From the NCBI RefSeq assembly GCF_009914755.1, contig NC_060935.1: a stretch of DNA of 64,000 nucleotides; one strand, written 5' to 3'. The translations under genes and the position numbers were made by a program. Under the pieces are notes generated by a model. That model was not told the DNA's origin. It saw only the letters and a program-made list of their open reading frames with translations, and did not search any database. The stretch's first letter is position 1; every line of letters begins with the position of its first letter. This document shows, one piece after another, positions 691-29,019 of the stretch. The stretch comes from the human T2T-CHM13v2.0 reference genome, Homo sapiens.

Positions 691-1739
691 TAAGTCTATA
701 TTTTATCAAAAATAATAAAGTATTTAAAGTATTACTCAATCTAATACTAACACAAATAATAGCTAATACTGATGGCTTACTATGTACCTATTGCTGCCCT
801 AACATCTCTATCTACATTAACTCATATAACTCTAAAAATCTAAATGAACCCTCCATCGTGATTTTTCTTGTTTCTTAAAAACAATAAAAATGAAAGCAAT
901 AACAAAATAATTTTTCTACAGTTATTGTTTGTCTATTGTCAACTATACATCAGCTATGTTACAACAATATTAAATTATGGAACAGAAAAATACTTTTATA
1001 ATCAAGGAAAATATATTAAAGAGTGAGACATTTATTCAGGTATATACATGATGAAGAAAGGCTGAAGGAAACAGAAATGAAAACATGAGAGCAGATGACG
1101 GACTCTTAGGCCTGTTTGTCAGGCTTTGGAGAGTTAATCTAGTCTTTTCTTAGATATGAAGAGAAACTTCCTCGAGGGAAAAATGAATATGCTAAGGGCA
1201 TCCAGGTTTGGAACTAGAACTCAGGTCTCTACTCTCAGTTGACTGATTTTCCATTATATCAAACTACTTTTCATAATAGATCTACCCACTTAGGATTATT
1301 CATGCATGGAACATAACATTAGTCCATCTGAATTTTAAGTTATCTTCTAGATTACAAAATTCCATAAGTCTTATCATTTCAAAAGTTCTTTCACAACGTA
1401 TTGGCTTATAGGCTGGCCTTTTAGTCAGTGTTGATTCTCCTTAACCACCATATCAAAATTTAAGCAATGCCAGATTTTCATATTTAATCCTGTAGGGTAG
1501 GTATTACTTCTTTTGCTAATTAAAAATATGAAGATTGAGGCTAATTTAAAAAAAATCTTGTCTAATGGTATACACATATTAAAAACTTGCTAAGGTGGGT
1601 GATATTGGAAAGTACAGCCATTTTACTGGAAAACTTTTTCTTTTTGTTTTATAGCGAATCCTCTCTCTTTCTTTACTGGAATGCTTTGTCACAGAGAAAA
1701 ATCACATAAAGAGCTGCAAACTAAAAAACATAAAAATAT

Positions 1740-21399: not shown

Positions 21400-23120
<1,721 letters not shown>

Positions 23121-23208
23121 TCTCTGCCAGCCACAATCACCTCACAGATAAAATTGTCTACCAGAATATCTCAGAACACCGAAGCAGTATTCTCTTAGAA
23201 CTTTGCTT

Positions 23209-23321
23209 TCCCTGGCTGACTCTCTTTTTGGACTTAGCCCGCCTGCACCCAGGTGAAATAAACAGCCTTGTTGCTCACACAAAGCCTGCTTGGTGGTCTC
23301 TTCACACGGACTCGCATGAAA
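23209..23321 (+). repeat. 5' LTR7 remnant: R-U5 only
   Basis: GCTGACTCTCTTTT...CCCAGGTGAAATAAACAGCC...GGTGGTCTCTTCACACGGACTCGCATGAAA; upstream sequence has no match to the U3 at 27913-28214. Confidence 0.93.
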
Positions 23322-23323
23322 TT

Positions 23324-23341
23324 TGGTGCCGTGACTCGGAT
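23324..23341 (+). other. Primer-binding site complementary to the tRNA-His 3' end
   Basis: TGGTGCCGTGACTCGGAT, 18 nt, immediately after U5. Confidence 0.95.
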
Positions 23342-23872
23342 CGGGGGACCTCCCTTGGGAGATCAATCCCCTGTCCTCCTGCTCTTTGCTCCATGAGAAA
23401 GATCAACCTACGACCTCAGGTCCTCAGACCAACCAGCCCAAGGAACATCTCACCAATTTCAAATCCAGTAAGCGACCTCTTTTTACTCTCTTCTCCAGCC
23501 TCCCTCACTATCCCTCAACCTCTTTCTCCTTTCAATCTTGGCACCACACTTCAATCTCTCCCTTCTCTTAATTTCGATTCCTTTCATTTTCTGGTAGAGA
23601 CAAAGGAGACACATTTTATCCGTAGACCCAAAACTCTGGTGCTGGTCACGGACTCTGGAAGGCGGCCTTCCCTTGGTGTTTAATCATTGTGGGGACGCCT
23701 CTCTGATTATTAACCCACGTTCCATTGGTGTCTGATCTTCGTGGGGATGCCTGTCTTGATCATTCACCCACGTTCCCTTGGTGGCAAGTCAATTGCGGGG
23801 ATGCCTGCTTTGGCTGTTCCCCACCCCCTTCTCCGTGTCTCTACCCTTCTCTTCAAACTTGTCCCCTTCCCT

Positions 23873-25105
23873 ATAGGCAACCTTCCACCCTCCATTCCTC
23901 CTTCTTCTCCCTTAGCCTGTGTTCTTAAGAACTTAAAACCTCTTCAACTCTCGCCTGACCTAAAATCTAAGAGTCTTATTTTCTTCTGCAACACTGCTTG
24001 GCCCCAATACAAACTTGACAATGGCTCTAAATGGCCAGAAAACGGCACTTTCGATTTCTCCATCCTACAAGACCTAAATAATTTTTGTCGAAAAACGGGC
24101 AAATGGTCTGAGATGCCTGACATCCAGGCATTCTTTTATACATTGTTCCATTCCCTAGTCTCTGTTCCCAATGCGAATCATCCCAAATCCTCCTTCTTTC
24201 CCTCCCGCCTGTTCCCTCAGTCCCAACCCTAAGCATCACTGAGTCTTTCTAATCTTCCTTTTCTACAGACCCATCTGACCTCTCCCCTCCTCCCCAGGCT
24301 GCTCCTCGCCAGGCCAAGCTAGGTCCCAATTCTTCCTCAGCCTCCGCTCCTCCAACCTATAATCTTTTTATCACCTCCCCTCCTCACACCCCGTCTGGCT
24401 TACAGTTTCATTCTGCGACTAGCCCTCCCCCACCTGCCCAGCAATTTCCTCTTAAAAAGGTGGCTGGAGCTAAAGGCATAGTCAAGGTTAATGCTCCTTT
24501 TTCTTTATCCGACCTCTCCCAAATCAGTTAACGTTTAGGCTCTTTTTCATTAAATATGAAAAACCCAGCCCAGTTCATGGTTCGTTTGGCAGCAACCTGA
24601 GACGCTTTACAGCCCTAGACCCTAAAAGGTCAAAAGGCCGTCTTATTCTCAATCTACATTTTATTACCCAATCCGCTCCCAACTTTAAATAAAGCTCCAA
24701 AAATTAAATTCCAGCCCTCAAACCCCACAACAGGACTTAATTAACCTTGCCTTCAAGGTGTACAATAATAGAAAAACTTGCAATTCCTTGCCTCCACTGT
24801 GAGACAAACCCCAGCCACATCCCCAGCACACAAGAACTTCCAAACGCCTGAACCGCAGTGGCCAGGCGTTCCTCCAGAACCTCATCATCCAGGAGCTTGC
24901 TACAAGTGCCGGAAATCTGGCCACCAGGCCAAGGAATGCCCGCAGCCCGGGATTCCTCCTAAGCCACATCCCATCTGTGCAGGACCCCACTGAAAATCAG
25001 ACTGTTCAACTCACCTGGCAGCCACTCCCAGAGCCCCTGGAACGCTGGCCCAAGGCTGTCTTGACTGACTCCCTCCCAGATCTCGGCTTAGCAGCTGAAG
25101 ACTGA
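23873..25105 (+). pseudogene. gag: HERV-H gag (disrupted)
   Basis: Start decayed to ATA-GGC-AAC ([M]GNLPPS); matrix motif LIFFCNTAWPQYKLDNGSKWPENGTFDF; CCHC knuckle CYKCRKSGHQAKEC at 24898-24939; second knuckle broken by a stop; frameshifts. Confidence 0.9.
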
Positions 25106-25440
25106 TGCTGCCCGATCGCCTCGGAAGCCTACAGGACCATCACAGACACTTTAGGTAACTCTCACAGTGGAGGGTAAGTCCGTCCCCTTCTTAATCAATA
25201 TGGAGGCTACCCACTCCACATTACCTTCTTTTCAAGGGCCTGTTTCCCTTGCCTCCATAACTGTTGTGGGTACTGACGGCCAGGCTTCTAAACCCCTTAA
25301 AACTCCCCAACTATGGTGGCAACTTAGACAATACTCTATTAAGCACTCCTTTTTAGTTATCCCCACCTGCCCAGTTCCCTTATTAGGCTGAGACACTTTA
25401 ACTAAATTATCTGCTTCCCTGACTATTCCTGGGCTACAGC
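25106..25440 (+). pseudogene. pro: HERV-H protease (inactive)
   Basis: VEGKSVPFLINMEATHSTL (catalytic DTG replaced by NME) ... FLVIPTCPVPLLG*D. Confidence 0.85.
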
Positions 25441-25547
25441 CACACCTCATTGCCGCCTTTTCCCCCAGTGCAAAGCCTCCTTCACATCCTCCCCTTGTAT
25501 CTCCCAACCTTAACCCACAAGTATAGGACACCTCTACTCCCTCCTTA

Positions 25548-27330
25548 GTGACCGATCATGCACCCCTTACCATCCCATTAAAACCTAATCACCCTTACCC
25601 CGATCAATGCCAATATCCCATCCCACGGCAGGCTTTAAAAGGATTAAAGTCTGTTATCACTTGCCTGCTGCAGCATGGCTTTTTAAAGCCTGTAAACTCC
25701 CCTTACAATTCCCCCATTTTACCTGTCCTAAAACCAGACAAGCCTTACAGGTTAGTGCAGGATCTGCACCTTATCAACCAAATTGTTTTGCCTATCCACC
25801 CCATGGTGCCAAACCCATATACTTTTCTATCCTCAGTACCTCCCTCCACAACCCATTATTCTGTTCTGGATCTCAAACATGCTTTCTTTACTATTCCTTT
25901 GCACCCTTCATCCCAGCCTCTCTTTGCTTTCACTTGGACTGACCCGGACACCCATCAGGCTAAGCAAACTAACTAAGCTGTACTGCCACAAGGCTTCACA
26001 GACAGCCCTCATTACTTCAGTCAAGCCCAAATTTCTTCCCCATCTGTTACCTATCTTGTCATAATTCTCATAAAAACACACATGCTCTCTCTGCTGATCA
26101 TGTCCGGCTAATCTCCCAAACCCCAATCCCTTCTACAAAACAACTCCTTTCCTTCCTAGGCATGGTTAGTAAGGTCAAAATTCTTACACAAGGGCCAGGA
26201 CCGCGTCCTGTAGCCTTTCTGTGCAAACAAGTTGACCTTACTGTTTTAGCCTAGCCCTCATGTCTGCGTGCAGCGGCTGCTGCTGCTTTAATACTTTTAG
26301 AGGCCCCAAAAAGTCACAAACTGTGCTCAACTCACTCTCTTCAGTTCTCATAACTTCCAAAATCTATTTTCTTTCTCCCACCTGACGCATATACTTTCTG
26401 CTCCCCGGCTCCTTCAGCTGTACTCACTCTTTGTTGAGTCTCCCATAATTACCATTGCTCCTGGACCAGACTTCAATCCGGCCTCCCACAGTATTCCTGA
26501 TACCACACCTGACCCCTATGACTGTATCTCTCTGATCCACCTGACATTCACCCCATTTCCCCATATTTCCTTCTTTCCTGTTCCTCACCCTGAACACACT
26601 TGATAGTAGTTCCACCAGACCTAATCGCCACACACCAGCAAAGGCAGGCTATGCTATAGTACAAGCCACAAGCCCACCTCTTAGAACCTCTCATTTCCTT
26701 TCCATCCTGGAAATCTGTCCTCAAGGAAATCACTTCTCAGTGTTCCATCTGCTATTCTACTACTCCTCAGGTATTATTCAGGCCCCCTCGCTTCCCTACA
26801 CATCAAGCTCAGGGATTTGCCCCTGCCCAGGACTGGCGAATTGACTTTACTCACATGCCCTGAGTCAGAAAACTAAAATATCTCTTAGTCTGAGTAGACA
26901 CTTTCACTGGATGGGTAGAGGCCTTTCCCACAGGGTCTGAGAAGGCCACTGCGGTCATTTCTTCCCTTCTGTCAGACATAATTCCTCGGTTTGGCCTTCC
27001 CACCTCTATACAGTCTGATAATGGACCAGCCTTTACTAGTCAAATCAGCCATGCATTTTTTCAGGCTCTTGGTATTCAGTGAAACCTTTATATCCCTAAC
27101 GGTCCTCAGTCTTCAGGAAAGGTAGAACGGACTAATGGTCTTTTAAAAACACACCTCACCAAGCTCAGCCACCAACTTAAAAAGGACTGGACAATATTTT
27201 TACCACTTTCCCTTCTCAGAATTCAGGCCTGTCCTCGGAATGCTATAGGGTACAGCCCATTTGAGCTCCTGTATAGATGCTCCTTTTTATTAGGCCCCAG
27301 TCTCATTCCAGACACCAGACCAACTTGGAC
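25548..27330 (+). pseudogene. pol: HERV-H pol (deleted RT/RNase H, integrase with stops)
   Basis: RT motifs YRLVQDL, YSVLDLKHAFF and LPQGFTDSPHYF join directly to AQISSPSVTYL, so YxDD is deleted; integrase CSIC (26741) and in-frame D(26843), D(27017), X35, E(27125) with several in-frame TGA. Confidence 0.9.
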
Positions 27331-27898
27331 TGTGCCCCAAAAAACTTGTCATCCCTACTATCTTCTGTCTAGTCACACTCCTATTCGCCGTTCTCAACTA
27401 CTCATACATGCCCTGCTCTTGTTTACACTGCTGGTTTTCAGTTTCTCCAAGCCATCACAGCTGATATCTCCTGGTGCTATCCCCAAACTGCCACTCTTAA
27501 CTCTTGAAGTAAATAAATAATCTTTGCTGGCAGGACTACGCTGAATCTCCTTAGGCACTCTCTAATTAGATGTCCTGGGTCCTCCCAATTCTTAGACCTT
27601 TAATACCTGTTTTTCTCCTTCTCTTATTCCGTTTAGTTTTCCAATTCATACAAAACCGTATCCAGGCCATCACCAATAATTCTAAATGACAAATGTTTCT
27701 TCTAACAACCCCGCAATATCACCCCTTACCACAAAATTTTCCTTCAGCTTAATCTCTCCCACTCCAGGTTCGATGCCACCCCTAATCCTGCTCGAAGCAG
27801 CCCTGAGAAACATCGCCCATTTTCTCTCCATACCACCCCCAAAAATTTTCGCCGTTCCAACACTTTACCACTATTTCGTTTTATTTTTCTTATTAATA

Positions 27899-27912
27899 TA
27901 AGAAGACAGGAA
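27899..27912 (+). other. Polypurine tract
   Basis: AAGAAGACAGGAA directly before the 3' LTR. Confidence 0.8.
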
Positions 27913-28285
27913 CGTCAGGCCTCTGAGCCCAAGCTAAGCCATCGTATCCCCTGTGACCTGCACGTACACATCCAGATGGCAGGTTCCTGCCTTAACTGAT
28001 GACATTCCACCACAAAAGAAGTGAAAATGGCCTGTTCCTGCCTTAACTGATGACATTATCTTGTGAAATTCCTTCTCCTGGCTCATCCTGGCTCAAAAGC
28101 TCCCCTACTGAACACCTTGTGACCCCCCCACTCCTGCCCACCAGAGAACAACCCCCCTTTGACTGTAATTTTCCTTTACCTACCCAATTCTTATAAAACG
28201 GCCCCACCCCTGTCTCCCTTCGCTGACTCTCTTTTCAGATTCAGCCCACCTGCACCCAGGTGAAATAAACAGCCATGTTGCTCAC
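27913..28285 (+). promoter_or_regulatory. 3' LTR7: U3-R only (TATA 28192-28198, GC/GT box, AATAAA 28264-28269)
   Basis: (C)GTCAGGCCTCTGAGCCCAAGCTAAGCC start; two CCTGCCTTAACTGATGACATT repeats; TATAAAACGGCCCCACCCC; ends at GTTGCTCAC followed by an A-run. Confidence 0.93.
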
Positions 28286-29019
28286 AAAAAAAAAAAAAAA
28301 AGAAGAAGAAGAACTTTTCTTCTTTCCCTTCTGTGTTACTGATTCATACACCTGAGTGTGTAAAGTTACACTCATAGAATATAAGCATATTCTTTATGGT
28401 CAGTTTATGATACTACAGGGCCTGCCATGAATACTTATCCGTAAAATGGAATGGTGCTGATTCTTGAACAGGACTATTAAATGGATTCAATAAGTTAATA
28501 TTTGTAAAATTCATTTCAGTATCTTTGCAATTTGTGATATTTATTCACTATTTTCCAGAGGGCCTTAGCGTCTTTATGCATGAAATAGTGGAGTTTGCAA
28601 TGGGAATCATGGCTGCACTGGTTACCAGATGTGCAATCCTGGAAAAACCATTCCCTTTTCTAAACGTTTGTTGCTCTCTTTAAAATGTTTGTGATAGTAA
28701 CATCTAACTCTCCAGGCTTAAGGAACGAAGGAGACAGTTTGCGTCAAAGTGCTTCAGTGAGGCAAAAAGGTCATAAAATAGTAAATGTTATAATTTATCT
28801 ACATATCATAGAAAAATATTATGATGTAATTCACACTAAGGAACATAAATAACTGAGAAAGCTTAAGAAAGTTTCCATTGGTACATGCATTTAGTAGTAA
28901 TCAAAACCCATTTTTGTTCTATTGCACACTAGGTTGAAGGGATGTTAATATTGTTAACATATTATTTGACAAGAAACTCTAAAGTTAAATATATCTGGAC
29001 TACAAATTCTGATAAAATA

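What the first reader, a model, noticed from the sequence alone, without database searches (positions are those of the whole stretch)
23197..28321. Full-length HERV-H genomic RNA retroposed by LINE-1 rather than integrated as a provirus
Seen in sequence: the element starts at the position equivalent to ~23 nt downstream of the LTR TATA start (start of R, no U3). It ends 16 nt after AATAAA at ...GTTGCTCAC (no U5), followed by A16(GAA)n. It is flanked by AGAACTTTGCTT (23197-23208) and AGAACTTTTCTT (28310-28321), with TCTT|AGAA at the left junction. Established: integrase-made proviruses have two complete U3-R-U5 LTRs and 4-6-bp TSDs, whereas L1 TPRT products copy the RNA, carry an A-tail and a 7-20-bp TSD at TT|AAAA-like sites. 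Such processed copies are common for HERV-W and reported, but uncommon, for HERV-H. Inference: a 5.1-kb replication-dead retroviral RNA was copied end to end by L1 ORF2p. Repeat annotation would probably show it only as a provirus with two truncated LTRs.
Basis: partly seen in the sequence, partly recalled or inferred. Interest (0 to 1): 0.82.

Follow-up and report, generated by a model that had tools for sequence, protein, structure and literature searches.

The report
HERV-H RNA copy made by LINE-1
This 5.1-kb stretch is a dead human endogenous retrovirus (HERV-H) whose RNA was pasted into chromosome 11 by the LINE-1 copying machinery rather than by retroviral integration, and this genome holds at least a dozen more long copies made the same way.

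Summary

**The element.** It is R-U5-PBS-gag/pro/pol remnants-U3-R on the + strand.
- There is no U3 at the 5' end and no U5 at the 3' end.
- It ends 16 nt after AATAAA and carries an A16(GAA)n tail.
- It sits at a TCTT|AGAA nick site.

**Correction 1: the boundaries.**
- The copy most likely starts at 23214, with one untemplated G followed by GCTGACTC.
- The target-site duplication is then 17/20 nt (23197-23213 and 28310-28329), not 12 nt.

**Correction 2: it is not a rarity.**
- The LTR R end is followed directly by an A run at 64 places in this genome; a reversed-pattern control gave 0.
- I examined 50 of the 64. Sixteen start at the same R nucleotide:
  - 12 R-to-R copies of 2.8-5.5 kb
  - one doubly spliced copy
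  - one short, internally deleted copy
  - two R-only copies
- The 15 besides this one have 9-17-nt duplications.
- One further copy has a twin-priming 5' inversion.

**Mechanism and novelty.** The mechanism is textbook LINE-1 target-primed reverse transcription, as known for HERV-W. A 2017 review calls HERV-W the sole HERV group mobilised this way. I found no HERV-H report in the held library, but the key 2002 paper is not held. Ape and monkey orthologues could not be checked.

The parts
23197..23213 (+). 5' copy of the target-site duplication, AGAACTTTGCTTTCCCT (17 nt). The nick site on this strand reads TCTT|AGAA.
Evidence: It matches 28310-28329 apart from G versus TCTT in the middle. Chance estimate.
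23214..23214 (+). Extra G, templated neither by the LTR nor by the target. It is most likely the reverse-transcribed cap.
   Evidence: In LTRs that keep U3 the base at this position is C 29, T 9, G 1 (of 39). An extra G (TG in one) precedes GCTGACTC in 12 of 16 R-start copies; 3 are ambiguous and 1 has none.
23215..23278 (+). 5' R region (64 nt), GCTGACTC...GTTGCTCAC.
   Evidence: Repeat D1. It has the same extent as the 3' R, and as the whole of two R-only copies elsewhere.
23279..23321 (+). U5, ending ...CATGAAA.
   Evidence: It matches the U5 that follows R in 28 of 30 LTR loci.
23324..23341 (+). Primer-binding site TGGTGCCGTGACTCGGAT. That it is complementary to tRNA-His is recalled, not tested.
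   Evidence: The 18-mer occurs in one HERV-H paper and in tRNA / histidyl-tRNA-synthetase papers (search listing only).
23322..27912 (+). Internal region: leader with a 5' splice-site motif near 23466-23473, then broken gag, pro and pol. No env domain was found.
   Evidence: Pfam hits: Gag_MA 23714-24232, zf-CCHC 24772-24993, RVP 25155-25391, RVT_1 25527-25976, rve 26894-27082, all in short stop-to-stop pieces. Colinear with ordinary copies.
27913..28221 (+). U3 of the 3' LTR, complete, with TATAAAA at 28192-28198.
   Evidence: 95-96% identical to 39 other full-length LTR matches in the genome.
28222..28285 (+). 3' R region with AATAAA at 28264-28269. It ends at the poly(A) site.
28286..28309 (+). 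Poly(A) tail remnant: A16 then GAAGAAGA.
28310..28329 (+). 3' copy of the target-site duplication, AGAACTTTTCTTCTTTCCCT (20 nt).

Best explanation
A transcript of a HERV-H provirus was copied into chromosome 11 by LINE-1 target-primed reverse transcription.

The transcript:
- It started at the LTR transcription start, the G of GCTGACTC, 30 nt after the first T of the TATA box.
- It was left unspliced.
- It was polyadenylated at the LTR poly(A) site, 16 nt after AATAAA.

The insertion (inferred steps):
- The L1 endonuclease nicked the bottom strand at a TCTT|AGAA site.
- The A tail annealed there.
- ORF2p copied the whole 5.1-kb RNA through to the cap, leaving one extra G.
- Second-strand nicking 17-20 nt away produced the duplication.

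The result has no promoter at its 5' end, because U3 is missing. It has no intact genes. Its two ends share only a 64-nt R. It is therefore a processed pseudogene, not a provirus.

Shown here: the anatomy, the recurrence of the same anatomy elsewhere in the genome, and the L1 hallmarks. Inferred: that L1 was the enzyme, and the age (tens of millions of years).
For: 1. The 5' end lacks U3 and the 3' end lacks U5. Neither is found in the flanks.

2. There is an A16 tail and a flanking direct repeat abutting both ends. Its 12-nt core alone reaches chance level in only 65 of 20000 random placements.

3. The nick site TCTT|AGAA matches the recalled L1 endonuclease preference TT|AAAA at 5 of 6 positions.

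4. The element is colinear with an ordinary two-LTR copy on C1. The one 560-bp difference is a family variant: 8 ordinary loci have this element's form and 3 have the longer form.

5. Genome-wide, the pattern 'R end + A10' (up to 3 mismatches) has 64 matches, against 0 for the reversed pattern.

6. I extended 13 long loci; 11 are R-to-R copies without a 5' U3. All 11 have duplications of 10-17 nt with at most 1 mismatch.

7. All start at (G)GCTGACTC. An untemplated G is present in 12 of the 16 R-start copies, whereas G is seen at that position in 1 of 39 LTRs that keep U3.

8. One copy on C12 (81.95 Mb) has the inverted-5'-segment structure of twin priming, plus a duplication.

9. One copy on C12 (113.99 Mb) is a doubly spliced RNA copy with an A27 tail and a perfect 15-nt duplication.

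10. Two copies consist of R alone plus a tail.

11. The flanks are AT-rich (28-39% GC), against 44-49% GC in the element.
Against: - No orthologous empty site was seen, so the duplication is inferred from this one genome.
- The two duplication copies differ by one substitution and a 3-nt indel. The target (CTTTCCCT) resembles the LTR just upstream of R (CTCCCTTC), which leaves the exact 5' boundary ambiguous by 5 nt.
- The nick site matches the L1 preference at 5 of 6 positions, not 6.
- L1 is inferred from hallmarks. Nothing in the sequence names the enzyme.
- Nick sites at some sister copies are weaker matches (for example AGAC|AAAT and AGAG|AAAG).
Confidence: 0.93

Rival explanations
1. An ordinary integrase-made provirus that later lost the U3 of its 5' LTR and the U5 of its 3' LTR through two separate deletions.
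For: Terminal deletions of proviruses are common (general knowledge). Repeat annotation would look the same. No tool result here favours this reading.
Against: - Both breakpoints fall exactly on the RNA start and the poly(A) site.
- An A16 tail and a 17/20-nt repeat abut them.
- The same two breakpoints recur at 11 other long loci on other chromosomes, each with its own duplication.
Confidence: 0.02
2. The RNA was reverse-transcribed by some other enzyme (a retroviral RT, or L1 ORF2p acting without its endonuclease) and the cDNA was captured at a chromosome break.
For: Endonuclease-independent L1 insertions and cDNA capture at breaks are described (recalled). The enzyme cannot be read from the sequence.
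Against: - As I recall, such events typically lack target-site duplications and often lack tails.
- This locus has a tail, a long duplication and an A-rich nick site with T just 5' of the nick. T holds that position in 9 of 13 R-start copies tabulated.
- Twin priming is seen at a sister locus.
Confidence: 0.04
3. The structure is an assembly or duplication artefact, or a recombinant between two HERV-H copies.
For: None found.
Against: - Both flanks are unique in the genome.
- The nearest relative, an ordinary provirus at C22:35.29 Mb, is only 91-94% identical.
- The element is colinear from R to R.
Confidence: 0.01

Closest known systems
HERV-W processed pseudogenes made by LINE-1. Pavlicek et al. 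2002 and Costas 2002 are recalled and not held. Grandi et al. 2016 (PMC5016936): passages seen. Grandi & Tramontano 2017 (PMC5537654): abstract and passages seen.
   Same: - R-U5...U3-R structure colinear with the retroviral RNA
- Poly(A) tail
- Long target-site duplication at an L1-type nick site
- No promoter at the 5' end
- Both 5'-truncated and full-length forms exist
   Different: - The retroviral family differs: LTR7/HERV-H with a His-type primer site, not LTR17/HERV-W.
[quoted passage not shown] These copies show that statement is too narrow.
Ordinary processed pseudogenes (retrocopies) of cellular mRNAs (Esnault et al. 2000, recalled).
   Same: Same machinery and same hallmarks: tail, duplication, nick site, an extra G at full-length 5' ends, and twin-priming inversions.
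   Different: The template is an unspliced 5-kb retroviral genomic RNA that keeps its introns. A doubly spliced version of the same RNA was also retroposed at another locus.
Spliced HERV-H elements in genomic DNA (Goodchild, Freeman & Mager 1995). Known to me only through passages of PMC11998498.
   Same: They show that HERV-H RNAs, including spliced ones, were turned back into genomic copies.
   Different: As described, those were found among cloned HERV-H proviruses. Recalled, not seen in any call: they are LTR-flanked copies attributed to retroviral-type retrotransposition. The copies here lack a 5' U3 and a 3' U5 and carry tails and long duplications. Locus L014 (C3:90.16 Mb) may be one of the Goodchild type.
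Ordinary HERV-H provirus, for example C22:35293773-35298836 or C1:231215245-231221183 in this genome.
   Same: Same internal sequence, order and length class (91-94% identity).
   Different: The ordinary copies have U3 before the 5' R and U5 after the 3' R. This locus has neither.

Membership tests
LINE-1-mediated processed pseudogene | Colinear with a mature RNA: starts at the transcription start and ends at the poly(A) site. | tested here: met
   It starts at G+GCTGACTC, 30 nt after the TATA box. It ends 16 nt after AATAAA. No U3 or U5 lies in the flanks. Fifteen other copies share the same start.
LINE-1-mediated processed pseudogene | Poly(A) tail directly after the RNA's 3' end. | tested here: met
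   A16 plus GAAGAAGA at 28286-28309.
LINE-1-mediated processed pseudogene | Target-site duplication of about 7-20 bp abutting both ends. | tested here: met
   17/20 nt with one substitution and one 3-nt indel. Its 12-nt core reaches chance level in 65 of 20000 placements.
LINE-1-mediated processed pseudogene | Insertion at an L1 endonuclease-type site (TT|AAAA on the tail strand; the motif is recalled). | tested here: met
   TCTT|AGAA, 5 of 6 positions. Among 13 R-start copies tabulated, T lies 5' of the nick in 9 and all duplications begin A- or G-rich.
LINE-1-mediated processed pseudogene | Orthologous empty site with a single copy of the duplicated sequence. | not testable with these tools
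   No primate genome is held. Both flanks are unique in this genome, so there is no paralogous empty site either.
Integrase-made provirus | Two complete U3-R-U5 LTRs. | tested here: not met
   The 5' end is R-U5 only and the 3' end is U3-R only.
Integrase-made provirus | 4-6-bp duplication next to the TG...CA LTR ends. | tested here: not met
   Neither the outer end of the 5' LTR nor the outer end of the 3' LTR exists at this locus.
   The 373-nt U3-R has 2913 first-look candidates in the genome. Forty were scored. Besides the locus itself, 39 are full-length matches at 94-96% identity.
HERV-H (LTR7 / HERVH-int) | Primer-binding site complementary to tRNA-His. | tested here: inconclusive
   The 18-mer at 23324-23341 appears in a HERV-H paper and in tRNA / histidyl-tRNA-synthetase papers. 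No tRNA alignment was made.
HERV-H (LTR7 / HERVH-int) | Gammaretrovirus-type gag-pro-pol order, usually with env largely deleted. | tested here: met
   Gag_MA, zf-CCHC, RVP, RVT_1 and rve occur in that order. No env family was hit.

The most novel reading that the evidence does not exclude
HERV-H is a second human endogenous retrovirus group that LINE-1 mobilised repeatedly, not once.
- There are dozens of events from several LTR7 types: U3-R identity among 13 copies is 62-97%.
- They include 12 R-to-R copies of 2.8-5.5 kb, plus spliced, R-only, 5'-truncated and twin-primed forms.
- Nearly all full-length starts carry a cap-derived G.

If this class is not yet in print, it contradicts the statement that HERV-W is the only such group. 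It also means part of the 'provirus' count for HERV-H consists of promoterless pseudogenes.
Probability: 0.5. Interest if true: 0.6.

Novelty: new member of a known kind. Interest (0 to 1): 0.45.

Why it matters
The mechanism itself is textbook. The consequences for how HERV-H is handled are practical.

1. Copies like this one lack a 5' promoter. They should not be counted as proviruses in expression studies or locus lists. Vargiu et al. 2016 state that they did not separate the two classes (passages).

2. LTR-to-LTR divergence dating cannot be applied, because the two ends share only a 64-nt R. Solo-LTR formation by LTR recombination is also hardly possible. Such loci therefore bias the provirus-to-solo ratios used to argue that HERV-H is unusually well preserved. 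That argument is recalled; I did not read it here.

3. The copies act as a natural RACE experiment. Sixteen independent 5' ends place the LTR7 transcription start on one nucleotide. The tails place the poly(A) site on CA(C), with 1-nt wobble.

4. They record that HERV-H RNA and active L1 met in the germ line or early embryo many times. HERV-H is known to be highly transcribed there (recalled).

5. They contradict a review statement that HERV-W alone is mobilised by L1.

Tried and rejected
**Whether the 560-bp difference is a splice.** This element lacks about 560 bp relative to the C1 provirus at window ~26660. It is not a splice. Eight ordinary LTR-bearing loci have this element's form and 3 have the longer form.

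**Paralogous empty site.** None exists. Both flanks are unique in the genome.

**Source element.** The nearest relative is C22:35.29 Mb, at 91% identity over the 5' half and 94% over the 3' half. It is an ordinary provirus. It is too diverged to be named the source.

**Full census of the 64 places.**
Smaller fetches covered 50 of the 64 places.
- Long loci in the second batch (L080, L083, L086, L090) were not extended, so the count of long copies is a lower bound.
- Seven loci with a different U3 type (L033, L034, L036, L039-L041, L048) were not resolved at their 5' ends.

**Literature.**
- Seven word searches and passages of 15 papers gave no description of L1-made HERV-H copies.
- Pavlicek et al. 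2002 and Jern et al. 2005 are not held. An earlier report cannot be excluded.
- Supplements were not consulted.

**Other.**
- A gapped score for the 17/20-nt duplication is not clearly better than the 12-nt ungapped one. This is my own arithmetic, no call. The longer reading rests on the shared start point of the sister copies.
- Complex prediction, structure prediction and Rfam tools were not used. They are not relevant here.


Full report
**What is at the locus**

On the + strand, the 5' side reads in this order:
- unique AT-rich DNA ending ...TATTCTCTT
- AGAACTTTGCTTTCCCT (23197-23213)
- GGCTGACTC..., which opens a 64-nt R region ending GTTGCTCAC (23278)
- U5 (23279-23321)
- an 18-nt primer-binding site (23324-23341)
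- the internal region

The 3' side reads:
- a complete U3 from about 27913, with TATAAAA at 28192-28198
- R from 28222, with AATAAA at 28264-28269
- a stop at GTTGCTCAC (28285)
- A16 and GAAGAAGA
- AGAACTTTTCTTCTTTCCCT (28310-28329)
- unique DNA

The two ends share only a 74-nt stretch, mostly R, at 88% identity. BLAST finds no U3-like sequence upstream (best E 0.23) and no U5-like sequence downstream (best E 0.15).

**Are the boundaries the RNA ends?**

The window's own genome could be searched. I looked at the 30 best matches to the 3' LTR.
- In 28 of them, U5 (ACAAAGCCTGTTTGGTGG...) follows GTTGCTCAC.
- The other 2 run into an A tract. One is this locus and the other lies on C12.

So the 3' end is the R/U5 border, 16 nt after AATAAA. 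That is where a poly(A) site is expected.

The 5' end lies 30 nt after the first T of the TATA box, counted on the intact 3' LTR. That is the expected distance for a start site.

**Is it a full, unspliced RNA copy?**

The element aligns end to end with an ordinary two-LTR copy on C1. One roughly 560-bp piece is absent at about window 26660.

That piece is a family polymorphism. Eight ordinary LTR-bearing loci have this element's form and 3 have the longer form.

The nearest relative genome-wide is C22:35293773-35298836. It is 91% identical over the 5' half and 94% over the 3' half, and colinear throughout. It is an ordinary provirus with U3 and U5 in place.

The two introns removed in a spliced sister copy are both present here. 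The template was therefore unspliced genomic-length RNA.

Pfam finds Gag_MA, zf-CCHC, RVP, RVT_1 and rve in that order, each in short stop-to-stop pieces. No env family was hit. The RNA was non-coding junk when it was copied or soon after.

**The duplication and the exact 5' end**

A repeat of at least 12 nt with at most 1 mismatch near both ends arises by chance in 65 of 20000 random placements in this window.

The repeat is in fact longer. CTTTCCCT (23206-23213) recurs at 28322-28329. This gives 17 nt against 20 nt, differing by one substitution and one 3-nt indel in a CTT-rich run.

The sister copies decide it. They all start at (G)GCTGACTC.

**It belongs to a class**

The pattern 'last 19 nt of R followed by A10', with up to 3 mismatches, matches 64 places in the genome. 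The reversed pattern matches 0. Three of the places, on C9, share one flank and are probably one event that was later duplicated.

I examined 50 of the 64 places. The 20 tails I printed are all A-rich.

Thirteen long loci were extended upstream.
- Eleven are R-to-R copies with no U3 at the 5' end. By my arithmetic from the coordinates, they are about 2.8-5.5 kb long.
- The other two are 5'-truncated.

With this locus, that makes 12 R-to-R copies. Further R-start copies are:
- a doubly spliced copy on C12 (113.99 Mb) with A27 and a perfect 15-nt duplication
- a short, internally deleted copy on C15 (53.52 Mb)
- two copies consisting of R alone plus a tail, on C14 (33.49 Mb) and C11 (5.69 Mb)

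For the 12 other R-start copies tabulated:
- All have duplications of 10-17 nt with at most 1 mismatch.
- The duplications begin with A-rich or GAAA-type sequence.
- T sits just 5' of the nick in 9 of 13 copies, counting this one.

Read by eye, the three later R-start copies have duplications of about 9-13 nt.

A copy on C12 (81.95 Mb) has a direct 3' segment joined to an inverted upstream segment, with a duplication around the whole. That is the signature of twin priming.

**The extra G**

Before GCTGACTC, 12 of the 16 R-start copies carry a G (TG in one) that belongs neither to the duplication nor to the LTR. Three are ambiguous and one has none.

In LTRs that keep U3, the base at that position is C 29, T 9, G 1 (of 39).

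From recalled literature, an untemplated 5' G is what reverse transcription through the cap leaves on full-length L1-made copies.

**Mechanism**

The following features together are the hallmarks of LINE-1 target-primed reverse transcription acting on a capped, polyadenylated RNA:
- tail
- long duplication
- A-rich nick site
- cap G
- 5' truncations
- twin priming
- AT-rich surroundings (28-39% GC in the flanks against 44-49% in the element)

Shown: the anatomy and its recurrence. Inferred: the enzyme, the order of steps and the age.

U3-R identity among 13 retrocopies ranges from 62 to 97%, with a median of 84%. Several LTR types and therefore several source elements were involved. My sample of ordinary LTRs was biased toward this element's type, so I draw no conclusion on clustering.

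**Rivals**

- Two independent deletions of a provirus cannot explain the tail, the duplication or the recurrence.
- cDNA capture without the L1 endonuclease does not predict the duplications or the nick sites.
- An assembly artefact is excluded by the unique flanks.

**Comparison with what is known**

This is the architecture described for HERV-W processed pseudogenes (passages of PMC5016936 and PMC5537654).

[quoted passage not shown] A 2016 HERV classification says processed pseudogenes were not separated from proviruses. A 2018 study excluded such copies for HERV-W only.

Spliced HERV-H copies reported in 1995 are described as found among cloned HERV-H proviruses. As I recall, they are LTR-flanked.

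Seven word searches and passages of 15 papers gave no description of L1-made HERV-H copies. The 2002 paper that defined the HERV-W class is not held, and neither is the main HERV-H survey. I cannot confirm or exclude that.

The names HERV-H and LTR7 are recalled. No tool supplied them. The primer-site 18-mer does occur in a HERV-H paper and in tRNA / histidyl-tRNA-synthetase papers (search listing only).

**Verdict**

The finding is real and correctly interpreted. It is an ordinary product of a known mechanism acting on a template family for which I found no such copies described.

As a single locus it is a modest curiosity. The class behind it, at least 16 R-start copies among 50 junctions examined, is the more useful result. 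It matters for HERV-H annotation, dating and expression work.

Not done:
- orthologous loci, because no primate genome is held
- the 5' ends of several long or divergent-LTR loci

Noticed in passing
L055 / L005 = G000:C12:81954112-81956240 (- strand): A 5'-truncated HERV-H retrocopy with a twin-priming structure. The last 873 nt of the RNA are direct. The 348 nt just upstream are inverted, with 3 nt lost at the joint. It has an A/GAAA tail and a duplication, GAAATCTATTA....
   Followed up: partly
L056 = G000:C12:113998002-114001030, copy at locus 709-1518 (+): A retrocopy of a doubly spliced HERV-H RNA, only about 810 nt long. It has A27 and a perfect 15-nt duplication, and starts GGCTGACTC. 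The joints fall at GTAAG-type donor and AG acceptor motifs that are intact in the window's element (near 23466-23473 and about 24982; near 25153 and about 27905). L084 (C1:25.75 Mb) looks like a second copy of this form.
   Followed up: partly
L045 = G000:C14:33485729-33488757 (-) and L093 = G000:C11:5690895-5692373 (-): Retrocopies consisting of the 64-nt R alone plus a tail and a duplication. A transcript that started in an LTR and was polyadenylated in the same LTR was therefore also copied. This implies the poly(A) signal in a 5' or solo LTR is sometimes used.
   Followed up: partly
L014 = G000:C3:90158056-90161430: An LTR-bearing HERV-H copy (U3 present) in which the stretch equivalent to window ~23341-24982 is missing. 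The gap ends at the same acceptor used in the spliced retrocopy. It may be a spliced provirus of the kind reported in 1995.
   Followed up: no
L039, L040, L041 = G000:C9 at 42.41, 47.59 and 77.28 Mb: Three R-end-plus-tail junctions share the same downstream flank. This is probably one retrocopy carried along by later segmental duplication on chromosome 9.
   Followed up: no
window 23691-23830: About three tandem units of roughly 53 nt lie in the leader (repeat families D6 and D8). Most other HERV-H copies differ in length exactly here: alignments break at element positions about 561-611.
   Followed up: no
window 27976-28057: A 31-nt motif is repeated 51 nt apart inside U3 (94% identical).
   Followed up: no
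window 22941-22958 and 22549-22869: An 18-nt T run lies just downstream of a masked repeat, about 240 nt before the insertion site. It looks like the tail of an older antisense retroposon.
   Followed up: no
L042 / L066 = G000:C10:110452000-110459712: One of the full-length HERV-H retrocopies inserted into an Alu element. Its 16-nt duplication AGAAAGATAAGGTCTC continues into Alu-like sequence.
   Followed up: no
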